IMG/VR virus record: IMGVR_UViG_2799112265_000001
Span: 32,001-96,000 of that record
Strand: one strand, 5' to 3'
DNA: 64,000 bases
Origin: a virus
Taxonomy: Duplodnaviria > Caudoviricetes
The notes under the pieces are model-generated. The model saw nothing but the letters and a program-made list of their open reading frames with translations, was not told the origin of the DNA and searched no databases. Positions 24,605-51,474 of the stretch are shown in pieces. Positions within the stretch are counted from its first letter, which is position 1, and each line of letters starts with the position of its first letter. The position numbers and the translations under genes were made by a program.

Positions 24605-24958
24605 GTGGCGCAACGAAAGACCGGCCCCACCGACGTGGTGAAGGTCATCGTCTACGACCGGGACGATGGCACATGCGTGCGCTGCGGGGCCCGGCATGAC
24701 CTGACGATCCACCACCGCGTGAACCGGGGTATGGGCGGCGCCCGCGAGGCGTGGATCAACCAGGCCCACAACCTCCTGACCGTGTGCACCACGTGCAACG
24801 GCTGGTTCGAGGACCACCCGCGCGAGTCGTACGCGGCCGGCTGGAAGGTTCGGCGGCCGCAGCTCCCCGGCGAGGTCGAGGTGCGCTACCCGGACGGCTG
24901 CTTCTACCGGCTCACCCCGGACGGGGTGCGCTCGACGACCGTGGCGGCCGCGCGGTGA
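24605..24958 (+). CDS. HNH endonuclease
   Basis: RDDGTCVRCG, IHHR and NLLTVCTTCN. Confidence 0.85.
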   Translation: MAQRKTGPTDVVKVIVYDRDDGTCVRCGARHDLTIHHRVNRGMGGAREAWINQAHNLLTVCTTCNGWFEDHPRESYAAGWKVRRPQLPGEVEVRYPDGCFYRLTPDGVRSTTVAAAR

Positions 24959-25053
24959 CCCGGCGCAGGCGCAGGCGCAGATGGATCTCGGACATGTTCG
25001 ACGCGGTGCTCGACGGGCTGATCGAAGCCCTGTTCTCTCGGGGGTGGAAGTGA
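24955..25053 (+). CDS. 32-aa Arg-rich peptide
   Basis: Coupled on both sides by GTGA and TGATG overlaps. Confidence 0.5.
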   Translation: MTRRRRRRRWISDMFDAVLDGLIEALFSRGWK

Positions 25054-25898
25054 TGTTGCGGAAGCAGTGCCCGGCGCGGGCGGAGAAGGTTCTGGCCGGC
25101 GACTTGCAGTGCCAGCGGGCCGCCCGGCATGTGGGGGAGCACAAGGCGTCACCGAGGGCGGATTCGGCGATGCATCATTCGTGGTCGGAGGGCGCTGACC
25201 GGTTCGGCTACCAGTGGCTGCCCGGCAACGTCCGGTTCCGCAAGCGAGAGTGCCAGGCCCTCGACAAGGTGTCGTACGGCCTGGGCGGGCTCGTCGTGCG
25301 GGTGCTCATGTCCGCAGCGCTCTGGGCGAGCGGGAACCCGGGCGCCGCCGCGGTGTTCTTCGTCTTGGACATGCTGCTGTCCGTACGGCGGCCGCACTTC
25401 GTGGACGTCGGCCGGTTCACCGTGGGCGTGTTCCTGGCGGTTCCTCGAAGCAACTGCGAGCCGTTCTTCTCGATCGGCTTCACCCGGCACGGGCCCGACG
25501 CGGGCGCGCCGGCGAACGGCCTGTCCATCGGGTTCGGCCGCGTCGTGCTCATGGCGTGCACGCTGCTCCCGCGAGCCGAGTGGAAGGTGTTCCGGGCGGA
25601 GCAGGCCGAGCGGCGGGCGCAGCGGAAGGGGCCCCGAAGGGCGCTCCGGGTCCGGCGTCGGCTGCGTCGGCTCGTGGTGGCGGGGCCGAGGTCGCTGCGG
25701 GTGGGTTCGTGGATGCTGTGGTCCGGGCGGATGCCCGGGACGACCATCGGGGTCGGGCAGATCACGGTGGCGGACAAGCCGTCCGACCTGCGGCTGACGC
25801 GGACCGAGGACTGGCGGGGACACACGGTGGTCCTGTTCGGGCGGGCGTTCGCAGTGCTGCGGAGCCGGCCGGTCGAGGTTCGGCAGCTTCGCACCTGA
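25053..25898 (+). CDS. hypothetical membrane-associated protein
   Basis: TGATG coupling; hydrophobic segments. Confidence 0.65.
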   Translation: MLRKQCPARAEKVLAGDLQCQRAARHVGEHKASPRADSAMHHSWSEGADRFGYQWLPGNVRFRKRECQALDKVSYGLGGLVVRVLMSAALWASGNPGAAAVFFVLDMLLSVRRPHFVDVGRFTVGVFLAVPRSNCEPFFSIGFTRHGPDAGAPANGLSIGFGRVVLMACTLLPRAEWKVFRAEQAERRAQRKGPRRALRVRRRLRRLVVAGPRSLRVGSWMLWSGRMPGTTIGVGQITVADKPSDLRLTRTEDWRGHTVVLFGRAFAVLRSRPVEVRQLRT

Positions 25899-50476: not shown

Positions 50477-50899
50477 ATGAAGGCCAGCATGCTGGTCCTG
50501 ACCGTGGCGGCCGCGAGCGGCTGCGGCACGTCGGAGAAGGCAGAGCAGCCGGTGGCAGCGAAGCCGAAGACGGTGAGCGTGGCGGCCGCCACCGAAGACT
50601 TCAAGGCCGCCGTGGACAAGTTCGACACGGACGGCGGGTGCCTGGAACAGGCCCCGGGGACGTGCTGGTCGGAGATGACCGCGGTGATGGAGCCCGCCCG
50701 GACCCTGCGGAAGGCGATGAACGCCGACAAGACGGTGGGCCCCGACTTCTGGACCGGTGCGTACGCCTTGATCAACACCATGGAGAAGGGCATCGCGGTC
50801 GGAGAGGACAAGGGCGCCGGCACCTTCTCCAACCGGCCAGACGTCCTCGGCTCCGCGCACCACTTGGCCGACTGGCTGGACGAGCACCCGCTCAGTTGA
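50477..50899 (+). CDS. putative lipoprotein
   Basis: MKASMLVLTVAAASGC lipobox. Confidence 0.75.
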   Translation: MKASMLVLTVAAASGCGTSEKAEQPVAAKPKTVSVAAATEDFKAAVDKFDTDGGCLEQAPGTCWSEMTAVMEPARTLRKAMNADKTVGPDFWTGAYALINTMEKGIAVGEDKGAGTFSNRPDVLGSAHHLADWLDEHPLS

Positions 50900-50917: not shown

Positions 50918-50946
50918 AGAGCCCCGACCTGTGTGGTCGGGGCTCT
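50918..50946. terminator. terminator hairpin overlapping the last mini-array repeat
   Basis: AGAGCCCCGACC-TGTGT-GGTCGGGGCTCT. Confidence 0.75.
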
Positions 50947-51066
50947 GCCCCGCCAGCGCGGGGGCGACCCGTCGGTGAGACGGGAGAGCGGAACATCCCC
51001 GCGAGGGCGGGGTCAACCACTCCATGAAACAGAGGAGCGGATCATCCCCGCGCACGCGGGGGACCA
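50940..51066 (-). CRISPR. cas-less type I-E-like mini-array: three degenerate 29-nt repeats, two 20-nt spacers
   Basis: Repeats TGGTCCCCCGCGTGCGCGGGGATGATCCG (51066-51038), GTTGACCCCGCCCTCGCGGGGATGTTCCG (51017-50989), GTCGCCCCCGCGCTGGCGGGGCAGAGCCC (50968-50940); period exactly 49. Confidence 0.75.
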
Positions 51067-51108
51067 ACACCCCCACTATGGCACGTCGGGCTGCTCGTTG
51101 GGTCGGTT

Positions 51109-51465
51109 TCAAAACCCGCGCTTCACGGGCAAGGGTCGAGTGCCTCTGCAGCGCACATCACGACAGCGCAGCAGCATCTCGCCCTCTTCGGCATTCCACG
51201 CCCCTCGCTCGGTCATGTTCGAGGCTCCGCACGATGGGCAACAGCGGCGCGGGTTGACGTGAGAGACGGGAAACTTGACCTGAAAGTCCCGGTTTCTATC
51301 GCAAAGCTCGTGATGTGGGTGCTTGGTACCATAGACGCGATTATTGGTACATGGCACGCAGCAACTGATTCCTGCGGCGGTCCATCTTCCACACCAGCAT
51401 GATTCGACTTCGAGTCCCATTGCGTTCAGCTGGACTTTCCGGCTCTTCTGCGGCTCAGGGTTCAC
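51109..51465 (-). CDS. Cys-rich low-GC hypothetical protein
   Basis: AGGAG RBS, 11 Cys, immediately upstream of the mini-array. Confidence 0.5.
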   Translation of the reverse strand: MNPEPQKSRKVQLNAMGLEVESCWCGRWTAAGISCCVPCTNNRVYGTKHPHHELCDRNRDFQVKFPVSHVNPRRCCPSCGASNMTERGAWNAEEGEMLLRCRDVRCRGTRPLPVKRGF

Positions 51466-51474
51466 GGGGAACTC

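What the first reader, a model, noticed from the sequence alone, without database searches (positions are those of the whole stretch)
50918..51080. Cas-less type I-E mini-array with 20-nt spacers: candidate RNA anti-CRISPR or Cascade-hijacking guide
Seen on minus: three 29-nt units with the CCCCGC-N4-GCGGGG stem, the first two ending in ATGATCCG and ATGTTCCG handles, at an exact 49-nt period. A -10-like CATAGT lies upstream and a terminator overlaps repeat 3. Spacers CTCCTCTGTTTCATGGAGTG and CTCTCCCGTCTCACCGACGG share 12 of 20 positions. No cas gene is in the window. Established: I-E repeats are 29 nt with 32-nt spacers, each Cas7 covers 6 nt, and mobile elements encode repeat-derived RNA anti-CRISPRs and regulatory mini-arrays. 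Inference: 20 = 32 - 12, so the products would assemble a Cascade two Cas7 short, either sequestering host Cas proteins or repressing a promoter without cleavage. The differing repeats may suit different Cas6e variants.
Basis: partly seen in the sequence, partly recalled or inferred. Interest (0 to 1): 0.88.

Follow-up and report, generated by a model that had tools for sequence, protein, structure and literature searches.

The report
Phage RNA mimic of CRISPR regulator
A Streptomyces phage with no cas genes carries a tiny imitation CRISPR array whose two short guides resemble the RNAs that Streptomyces uses to throttle its own cas genes, so it most likely turns the host's CRISPR machinery against itself; this trick was described recently, so it is a new example and not a new kind.

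Summary
On the minus strand at 50918-51080 there are three type I-E-like 29-nt repeats at an exact 49-nt period. Between them lie two 20-nt pseudo-spacers. A -10-like hexamer sits 8 nt upstream and a perfect 12-bp hairpin follows.

The window belongs to a complete 131.8-kb virus record. No CasE, Cas7e, Cse1 or Cas5 was found in it.

Short (20-21 nt) spacing is a recurrent, discrete class. I found 18 distinct pure short-period I-E mini-arrays in viral and actinobacterial contigs.

In 18 Streptomyces/Streptosporangium I-E loci I found host CreR-type mini-arrays. Their seed matches an AAN-flanked site about 25-45 bp upstream of cse1. The window's two pseudo-spacers match these seeds at 9/10 and 8/10 positions. 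Background rates among the phage's own 20-mers are 2.3e-4 and 2.5e-3. The two pseudo-spacers fall into two different host classes.

No exact cognate host, RNA data or processing evidence was obtained.

Best reading: a two-guide Cracr array (Liu et al., bioRxiv 10.1101/2024.10.29.618823) that reprograms a shortened host Cascade to repress cas genes and compete with crRNAs. It is a new member of a known kind. The scan had already flagged the same kind in other Streptomyces phages.

The parts
51075..51080 (-). -10-like hexamer CATAGT with TGC just upstream (extended -10-like). It ends 8 nt before repeat 1, so the transcript would start about at repeat 1.
   Evidence: Sequence. A strict TANNNT in the same place occurs in 9 of 18 analogous mini-arrays against 1.7% of random positions. 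The window's own hexamer is the looser NANNNT form, and the consensus scan did not call it.
51038..51066 (-). Repeat 1 (29 nt): 5-nt flank, I-E Cas6e-type stem-loop at 51061-51046, and the 8-nt 5'-handle ATGATCCG at 51045-51038.
51018..51037 (-). Pseudo-spacer 1 (20 nt), TGTTT-core class. Its seed (positions 1-5 and 7-11) matches host CreR RNAs and their cse1-upstream targets at 9 of 10 positions in five Streptomyces loci.
50989..51017 (-). Repeat 2 (29 nt): stem-loop at 51012-50997, handle ATGTTCCG at 50996-50989.
50969..50988 (-). Pseudo-spacer 2 (20 nt), CGTCT-core class. Best seed identity to a host CreR is 8 of 10 (L200). Positions 8-18 are identical to the CreR of L192.
   Evidence: positions 8-18 are my comparison of the output.
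50940..50968 (-). Repeat 3: terminal repeat with an intact stem-loop at 50963-50948 and a degenerate handle.
50918..50946 (.). Perfect 12-bp hairpin with a 5-nt loop, lying between the array and the convergent + strand gene. Probably a terminator that works in both directions.
   Evidence: I9; folded in the minimum-free-energy structure. It has no U-tract.
51109..51474 (-). About 370-nt lower-GC stretch between the GNAT-like gene and the array. It holds a 118-aa Cys-rich ORF of doubtful reality. This stretch and the array together are absent from the two related phage loci.
   Evidence: GC3 of 0.66 against 0.83-0.96 in neighbouring genes. No Pfam or PHROG hit. No homologue found. Homology to relatives ends at the GNAT gene.

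Best explanation
This is a phage-borne, cas-less 'Cracr array': a small autonomous RNA gene that imitates the host's own cas-regulating crRNA-like RNAs (CreR).

Proposed steps; all are inferred unless marked.

(1) Transcription starts at about repeat 1 from the CATAGT -10-like element and stops at the 12-bp hairpin.

(2) The host's Cas6e cuts at the base of each repeat hairpin. This gives two 49-nt RNAs, each with an 8-nt 5' handle, a 20-nt guide and a 21-nt 3' hairpin.

(3) Host Cas5e, Cas7e and Cse1 assemble on them into a Cascade with about two Cas7 fewer than normal.

(4) Through a 10-11-nt seed (positions 1-5 and 7-11), the complexes bind an AAG/AAT/AAC-flanked site about 25-45 bp upstream of cse1 (cas8e). 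That is the site used by the host's own CreR. The complementarity is too short for a full R-loop and Cas3 recruitment, so the complex represses the Cascade operon instead of cutting. The RNAs also compete with genuine crRNAs for Cas proteins.

(5) The two guides belong to two different seed classes of Streptomyces I-E loci, so one array covers two host variants.

Shown here: the anatomy, the absence of Cascade genes in the phage, the recurrence of the 20-21-nt class, the existence and geometry of host CreR/target pairs, and the seed resemblance.
For: Anatomy and non-random occurrence.

Phage context and absence of cas genes: the record is a complete virus with terminal repeats and lacks CasE, Cas7e, Cse1 and Cas5.

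Recurrence in viral contigs: repeat pairs with the same handle fall into two periods, 61 nt and 49-50 nt. The short period occurs in L005, L009 (5 repeats), L013, L020, L021, L025 and L026.

Recurrence in one genome per species: among spacers of 15-29 nt, 20 nt occurs 17 times and 21 nt 12 times, out of 50 matches.

Count of arrays: 18 distinct pure short-period arrays, 9 of them with TANNNT 4-14 nt upstream of repeat 1, against 1.7% of random positions.

Host side: Cse1 is present in 166 of 401 sampled Streptomyces genomes. In 124 cse1-upstream regions there are 18 CreR/target pairs with 0 seed mismatches, an AAN PAM, and the target 119-150 nt upstream on the same strand.

Seed resemblance: pseudo-spacer 1 reaches 9/10 seed identity with five of the 18 pairs and pseudo-spacer 2 reaches 8/10. 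Only 60 of 263,524 phage 20-mers reach 9/10, and 652 of 263,524 reach 8/10.

Mimics beside their cognate: two Streptomyces genomes carry, away from cse1, a second mini-array. In one its first 12 nt equal the genome's own CreR. In the other they differ only at the flipped positions 6 and 12 (G001: L044 versus L083; G002: L049 versus L081).

Other mobile elements: a Streptomyces linear plasmid (L247) and a prophage contig (L005/L060) carry 20-nt guides of the pseudo-spacer 1 class.

Host CreR guide lengths are quantised at 14, 20-21 and 32 nt.

Accessory status: the array is an insertion relative to two related phage loci.

Literature: Cracr RNAs and I-E Cracr arrays, viral guides mostly 17-21 nt, and complexes lacking two Cas7-family subunits (preprint sections read). 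Host I-E CreR with AAG PAM upstream of casA (passages). Viral mini-arrays copying host regulatory mini-arrays (section read).
Against: No sampled host locus has a seed identical to either guide. Pseudo-spacer 1 differs at seed position 3 or 4 and pseudo-spacer 2 at two seed positions. Single seed mismatches are known to weaken I-E binding strongly (established knowledge, recalled).

In one search the raw number of sites with at most 1 seed mismatch to pseudo-spacer 1 (15) did not exceed the number for shuffled spacers (mean 11.8). For pseudo-spacer 2 it was lower (17 against a mean of 39.6). The signal lies in where the hits sit, not in their number.

The natural host of this phage is unknown. 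No RNA run holds the locus. Nothing shows transcription or Cas6e processing.

The -10 element is only NANNNT, and the hairpin has no U-tract.

The two closest related loci lack the array, so conservation by descent could not be tested.

The sample is about 400 of a larger number of Streptomyces species, and only 120 of the Cse1 places were fetched.
Confidence: 0.68

Rival explanations
1. Pure decoy (Racr-like). The transcript is processed or simply bound by Cas6e, Cas5e and Cas7e and ties them up in short, useless complexes. The 20-nt inserts are spacers in the literal sense and guide nothing.
For: Intact Cas6e-type hairpins and canonical handles. The same phage has a second three-repeat mini-array outside the window (G000 about 24,950-25,066, minus strand). 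It has good hairpins but non-canonical handles, which looks more like a Cas6e decoy. No exact target was found. Racrs are described in PMC10651486 (listing and start of abstract only). The Cracr preprint itself reports competition with crRNAs.
Against: Both inserts resemble host CreR seeds far more than background 20-mers do. In other Streptomyces genomes the mobile copies match the resident CreR seed exactly. A decoy has no need for a conserved 5' half of the insert or a fixed 20-21-nt length.
Confidence: 0.15
2. A working mini-CRISPR aimed at something else. Candidates are a rival mobile element (inter-element conflict), a host gene, or the phage's own promoters (self-regulation through the host Cascade).
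For: Viral mini-arrays that target other viruses are known (cited in the section read). Pseudo-spacer 2 matches a conserved OppC/DppC-like permease gene in two Streptomyces genomes at 18 and 19 of 20 positions.
Against: The permease sites are flanked by GTC, not an AAN PAM, and one such match is about what 401 genomes give by chance (my estimate). In the phage's own genome, pseudo-spacer 1 has no other site with at most 1 seed mismatch. Pseudo-spacer 2 has six such sites, none with an AAN PAM. The array with its spacers finds nothing in 50,697 phage records. 20-nt guides are not expected to license Cas3 (inference).
Confidence: 0.07
3. An inert remnant: a decayed end of a CRISPR array picked up from a host or plasmid, now serving at most as a hairpin terminator between convergent genes.
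For: Repeat 3 is degenerate and the three repeats differ from one another. Streptomyces plasmids carry full I-E arrays and cas3. Truncated 20-nt spacers also occur sporadically inside normal arrays (L039, L040). The related phages lack the element.
Against: The same promoter, short-array, hairpin architecture recurs in 18 distinct loci with a sharp 20-21-nt length mode. Handles and hairpins are intact in repeats 1 and 2. Both inserts resemble CreR seeds. Random decay would not produce that.
Confidence: 0.08

Closest known systems
Viral Cracr arrays (Cas-repressing RNA anti-CRISPRs), in particular the prophage CracrIE array of Salmonella enterica Se29 (Liu et al., bioRxiv 10.1101/2024.10.29.618823; sections 7, 8, 11 and 12 read)
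   Same: On a mobile element without cas genes. Type I-E repeat-like units with an 8-nt handle. Two short guides (24 and 21 nt there, 20 and 20 nt here). A degenerate last repeat. Guides that resemble host CreR seeds, and two guides aimed at different variants of one subtype.
   Different: The host clade is Streptomyces (Actinomycetota); the word Streptomyces occurs 0 times in the preprint's main text. No exact cognate CreR or promoter was found for either guide. There is no experimental evidence. No recognisable Acr gene lies beside it. The preprint's Table S2, which lists 219 candidates, could not be seen and may already hold this or similar elements.
Host CreR RNAs of type I-E loci (Liu et al., bioRxiv 10.1101/2023.03.10.532045, passages read; regulatory mini-arrays of Shmakov et al., PMC10120712, section 26 and passages read)
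   Same: The repeat-guide-repeat unit. Partial (seed-only) complementarity to an AAG-type PAM site upstream of casA/cse1. Positions 6 and 12 are free to vary.
   Different: CreR sits inside the cas locus beside its target. This element sits in a phage, has two guides, and has no target nearby. For the pseudo-spacer 1 class the host guide is 32 nt, while the phage copy is 20 nt.
Racrs, RNA anti-CRISPRs made of solitary repeat units (Camara-Wilpert et al., Nature 2023, PMC10651486; only the listing and start of the abstract seen)
   Same: Phage-encoded repeat mimics that exploit host Cas proteins.
   Different: Racrs are described as repeat units without a guide function. Here the inserts carry CreR-like seeds.
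Canonical type I-E CRISPR arrays
   Same: 29-nt repeats with the same stem and handle. The last repeat is degenerate.
   Different: 20-nt instead of 32-33-nt spacers, non-identical repeats, only two spacers, and no cas genes in the replicon.

Membership tests
Cracr array (viral crRNA-like regulatory anti-CRISPR RNA) | Encoded on a virus or plasmid, outside any CRISPR-cas locus | tested here: met
   The record is a complete virus of 131,782 bp. CasE, Cas7e, Cse1 and Cas5 profiles give 0 matches. Phage-type neighbours by PHROGs.
Cracr array (viral crRNA-like regulatory anti-CRISPR RNA) | crRNA-like unit: repeat-like hairpin, 5' handle, short guide, second repeat-like hairpin | tested here: met
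   two full units plus a terminal degenerate repeat.
Cracr array (viral crRNA-like regulatory anti-CRISPR RNA) | The guide shares at least 9 PAM-proximal nucleotides with a host CreR/CreA guide. This is the criterion used in the preprint. | tested here: inconclusive
   Pseudo-spacer 1 matches 10 of its first 11 nt (9 of 10 seed positions) with five host CreRs, but with one internal mismatch. Pseudo-spacer 2 matches 8 of 10 seed positions. No perfect run of 9 from position 1 was found in 124 host loci.
Cracr array (viral crRNA-like regulatory anti-CRISPR RNA) | Guide shorter than canonical spacers (viral guides mostly 17-21 nt) | tested here: met
   20 and 20 nt. Preprint passage.
Cracr array (viral crRNA-like regulatory anti-CRISPR RNA) | Cas-dependent maturation, repression of the cas promoter, and rescue of phage infection | not testable with these tools
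   This needs small-RNA sequencing, reporter assays and plaque assays. No RNA run holder was listed.
Racr (solitary repeat unit decoy) | Repeat mimic without a guide that matches a target or regulator | tested here: not met
   Both inserts resemble CreR seeds. The feature as stated is taken from the abstract listing and from recall.
Canonical type I-E CRISPR array | Spacers of about 32-33 nt between identical repeats, beside cas genes | tested here: not met
   Spacers are 20 nt. The repeats differ in flank, loop and handle. No cas genes were found.
Virus-borne mini-CRISPR for inter-virus conflict | Spacers match other viruses or plasmids | tested here: inconclusive
   The whole array finds no phage record. 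Plasmid hits lie in the repeats or are analogous mini-arrays. The 20-nt spacers alone could not be searched in the large collections.

The most novel reading that the evidence does not exclude
The phage runs a two-pronged RNA counter-defence. The first prong is this array, whose two shortened guides cover two distinct autoregulatory classes of Streptomyces I-E systems. One of these classes uses a full 32-nt CreR in the host, so the phage copy would build a smaller Cascade than the host's own regulator. That smaller Cascade might escape whatever reads Cascade length, such as Cas3 licensing, an Acr, or a CreR-linked safeguard. The second prong is the three-repeat array elsewhere in the genome, with non-canonical handles, acting as a Cas6e decoy. 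In addition, the 14 / 20-21 / 32-nt ladder of host CreR guides would mean that Streptomyces itself uses Cascades of three sizes as regulators.
Probability: 0.2. Interest if true: 0.62.

Novelty: new member of a known kind. Interest (0 to 1): 0.45.

Why it matters
RNA anti-CRISPRs that reprogram Cas proteins against their own promoter have been shown experimentally only in a few Proteobacteria and Firmicutes systems. This locus, together with the host CreR/target pairs found along the way, extends the scheme to Streptomyces. Type I-E systems were found there in 166 of 401 sampled species. Phage-plasmids and CRISPR tools also matter in Streptomyces for strain engineering.

It gives a concrete, testable pair of 49-nt RNAs. 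It suggests that one array can cover two host regulatory classes. It also points to a length ladder (14, 20-21, 32 nt) in natural regulatory guides, which could inform the design of non-cutting Cascade repressors.

It does not open a new category.

Tried and rejected
Rfam. No CRISPR-DR family matched. The only hit on the locus was 'anti-hemB' at 26.3 bits against a gathering score of 49.5, which is a chance match to three GC hairpins.

Sigma-70 and terminator scan. It found no promoter, and its two 'terminators' are weak 5-bp stems inside repeat 1. They were not used.

Direct search of the pseudo-spacer 2 seed in 401 Streptomyces genomes. It was too noisy: every genome matched and controls were also positive. 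The two perfect 17-mers lie in an ABC permease gene with a GTC flank, which I judge to be chance.

Strict CreR pattern search. 76 of 401 genomes matched, mostly in coding sequence; only a handful were CreR-like.

Combined seed-pair pattern. It redrew the same genome sample, recovered the positive control L187 and found no cognate. L235, L241 and L244 are not CreR loci.

Homology of the 370-nt upstream stretch to host cas loci. Only the repeats match.

118-aa Cys-rich ORF as an Acr or toxin candidate. It has no Pfam or PHROG hit, no homologue ('near' lengths only) and a GC3 of 0.66. I treat it as doubtful, not as excluded.

Hairpin-forming guides. The window's two guides fold better than shuffles (z of -1.8 and -3.1). 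Across 30 short guides, however, the mean z is only -0.7, and raw energies do not differ from the first 20 nt of ordinary spacers (Mann-Whitney p = 0.83). This is not a general feature.

Sequencing runs. No RNA holder was listed. One DNA run may be the source.

Related phages. Two loci share the regulator plus GNAT operon at 74-75% identity and lack the array, so conservation of the 20-nt spacing by descent could not be tested.

Structure, complex and atlas tools were not used because no protein is at issue.

Supplementary tables of the Cracr preprint (Tables S1 and S2) and of Shmakov et al. were closed. They may list this phage, Streptomyces CreRs or related arrays.

Full report
WHAT IS THERE.

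The window is bases 32,001-96,000 of a 131,782-bp virus record with terminal repeats, rated complete. Its GC content is about 71%. Its only relative among isolated phages is Streptomyces phage Gilgamesh, at 74% identity over an FtsK-like gene.

On the minus strand at 51080-50918 lies, in order:
- a CATAGT hexamer preceded by TGC;
- 8 nt later, three 29-nt type I-E-like repeats at an exact 49-nt period;
- two 20-nt inserts between the repeats;
- a perfect 12-bp hairpin that starts in the tail of repeat 3.

Repeats 1 and 2 carry the Cas6e-type stem CCCCGC-N4-GCGGGG and the handles ATGATCCG and ATGTTCCG. Repeat 3 keeps the stem but not the handle. The stem pattern occurs three times in 64 kb, all three here, against 0.12 expected.

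The element sits between convergent units. A + strand gene for a 147-aa lipoprotein-like protein ends at 50899. On the minus strand there is an HTH-TPR regulator (phrog_10886), then a GNAT-like gene (phrog_29377), then a roughly 370-nt lower-GC stretch with a doubtful 118-aa ORF.

The phage has no CasE, Cas7e, Cse1 or Cas5.

As RNA, the 171-nt stretch folds far better than shuffles (z = -4.96).

IS THE 20-NT SPACING MORE THAN AN ODDITY?

A scan of the viral collection for two I-E repeats with this handle, 10-40 nt apart, gave 28 loci. The periods are bimodal. Most are 61 nt, the ordinary value. A second class has 49-50 nt and occurs in L005, L009 (five repeats), L013, L020, L021, L025 and L026.

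The same scan, restricted to spacers of 15-29 nt, was run on one genome per bacterial species and gave 49 loci. Of its 50 matches, 20 nt occurs 17 times and 21 nt 12 times; every other length occurs at most 9 times.

After removing duplicates there are 18 distinct pure short-period mini-arrays. Nine of them have a TANNNT hexamer ending 4-14 nt before repeat 1, against 1.7% of random positions in the same loci. Several are followed at once by a GC hairpin with a T run; the downstream sequences are printed.

These are therefore small autonomous RNA genes of a recurrent design. They are not random array debris.

WHAT THE GUIDES RESEMBLE.

In three actinobacterial genomes that hold such a mini-array I located Cse1. 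In one (L045, the same place as L080) the mini-array lies about 160 bp upstream of cse1.

Reading the cse1-upstream regions showed a host mini-array in each. Its guide matches, at positions 1-5 and 7-11, a site with an AAG or AAT flank that lies about 25-45 bp before cse1. This is the architecture published for CreR.

I then found Cse1 in 166 of 401 sampled Streptomyces genomes. I fetched 120 upstream regions. From them I extracted, by rule, 18 CreR/target pairs with zero seed mismatches, an AAN flank and the target 119-150 nt upstream on the same strand. Positions 6 and 12 usually differ between guide and target, as expected for the flipped-out bases of a type I guide.

The host guides come in three lengths: about 14 nt (5 loci), 20-21 nt (7 loci) and 32 nt (6 loci). 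For L187 the script's regular expression mis-hit, and I read the length from the printed sequence.

Comparison with the window's guides:
- Pseudo-spacer 1 matches five of these pairs at 9 of 10 seed positions. These pairs form the TGTTT-core class, whose host guides are 32 nt.
- Pseudo-spacer 2 matches one pair at 8 of 10. That pair belongs to the CGTCT-core class, whose host guides are 20-21 nt. It also shares positions 8-18 with the CreR of L192.
- Among all 263,524 20-mers of the phage genome, 60 reach 9 of 10 and 652 reach 8 of 10.

So two sequences that were defined beforehand by the repeats both fall in the extreme tail.

INDEPENDENT SUPPORT FROM OTHER ELEMENTS.

Two Streptomyces genomes carry a second mini-array on a contig other than the cse1 contig.
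- In G001, the first 12 nt of the guide of L044 equal those of the genome's own CreR (L083).
- In G002, the guide of L049 differs from its own CreR (L081), within the first 13 nt, only at positions 6 and 12.

A prophage contig (L005, the same sequence as L060; that genome has no Cse1) and a 220-kb linear Streptomyces plasmid (L247) each carry a single 20-nt guide of the pseudo-spacer 1 class.

WHAT IT IS NOT.

- It does not regulate the phage itself. Pseudo-spacer 1 has no other site in the phage genome with at most one seed mismatch. Pseudo-spacer 2 has six such sites, none with an AAN flank.
- The array finds nothing among 50,697 phage records.
- A 19-of-20 match of pseudo-spacer 2 to a permease gene has the wrong flank and is about what chance gives.
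- The two closest related phage loci share the regulator plus GNAT operon, and homology stops at the end of the GNAT gene. The 370-nt stretch plus the array is therefore an accessory insertion.

LITERATURE.

The mechanism is in print as preprints.
- Shmakov et al. (PMC10120712; section 26 read) reported phage copies of host regulatory mini-arrays with identical seeds and truncated spacers.
- Liu et al. (bioRxiv 10.1101/2024.10.29.618823; outline, sections 7 and 8, and passages of sections 11, 12 and the discussion read) named them Cracr RNAs.
  - They list 219 candidates, including 20 type I-E arrays of two or three guides.
  - They show for a Salmonella prophage array (guides of 24 and 21 nt) Cas-dependent maturation, casA repression and rescue of T7.
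  - They report that viral guides are mostly 17-21 nt.
  - They report that I-F complexes on such RNAs lack two Cas7-family subunits.
- The word Streptomyces does not occur in the main text of that preprint, of the CreR preprint, or of Shmakov et al..
- A library search for Streptomyces together with Cracr, CreR, mini-array or anti-CRISPR found no paper on such elements in Streptomyces.
- The supplementary tables were closed and may contain them.
- Earlier notes of this scan describe the same kind of element in other Streptomyces phages and phage-plasmids. I did not use them as evidence.

WEAKNESSES.

- No exact cognate seed was found in the sample.
- The raw number of near-matches is not above that for shuffled spacers. 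The argument rests on where the matches lie and on the background test.
- The host is unknown and there are no RNA data.
- The promoter and terminator are inferred.
- The Cas7 count is inferred from type I-F data and from recalled E. coli work on shortened spacers.

VERDICT.

The element is best filed as a new, Streptomyces-phage member of the Cracr arrays, with two guides that correspond to two host CreR classes. Confidence is 0.68. Interest is moderate, because the kind is already described and the scan has met it before.

Noticed in passing
Outside the window: G000:C1 about 24,950-25,066, minus strand: A second three-repeat mini-array in the same phage. It has a TACGAT hexamer 7 nt upstream, I-E-type stems, spacers of 21 and 19 nt, and non-canonical 'handles' unlike ATGNTCCG. 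It may be a Cas6e decoy or a guide set for another subtype variant.
   Followed up: partly
Host loci L080, L081, L083, L183-L209 (cse1-upstream regions of Streptomyces and Streptosporangium): Host CreR-type mini-arrays sit 119-150 nt downstream of their AAN-flanked target, and the target lies about 25-45 bp before cse1. Guide lengths fall in 6-nt steps: about 14, 20-21 and 32 nt. I found no paper describing this for Streptomyces in the searches made.
   Followed up: partly
Loci L114, L115, L139, L145, L150, L152-L154, L159, L167, L176: A further set of seed-matched guide/site pairs with an AAC flank. They occur in loci where Cse1 lies in a very long open frame (1,500-1,800 aa, probably Cas3-Cse1 fusions) or beside arrays. 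They look like another CreR class but were not examined.
   Followed up: no
window 51109-51465 (-): A 118-aa Cys-rich ORF in a lower-GC stretch between the GNAT-like gene and the array. GC3 is 0.66, and it has no Pfam, PHROG or database relatives. It is either a non-coding leader or an orphan small protein, and it is absent from the two related phage loci.
   Followed up: partly
window 51018-51037 and 50969-50988; also L005, L025, L044, L067: In the Streptomyces-type short guides the 3' half tends to pair with the seed (z of -1.8 to -3.4 against shuffles). This does not hold across all 30 short guides, and no explanation was found.
   Followed up: partly
L248 (NZ_CP109244.1) and L249 (NZ_CP108552.1): Large Streptomyces plasmids of 172 kb and 130 kb carry ordinary type I-E arrays with a 61-nt period. 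L249 has cas3 beside the array, so plasmid-borne I-E systems are possible targets or sources of such mimics.
   Followed up: no
L087 and L096 (Streptomyces genomes G345 and G398): Pseudo-spacer 2 matches a conserved OppC/DppC-like ABC permease gene at 18 and 19 of 20 positions, with a GTC flank. I judge this to be chance.
   Followed up: partly
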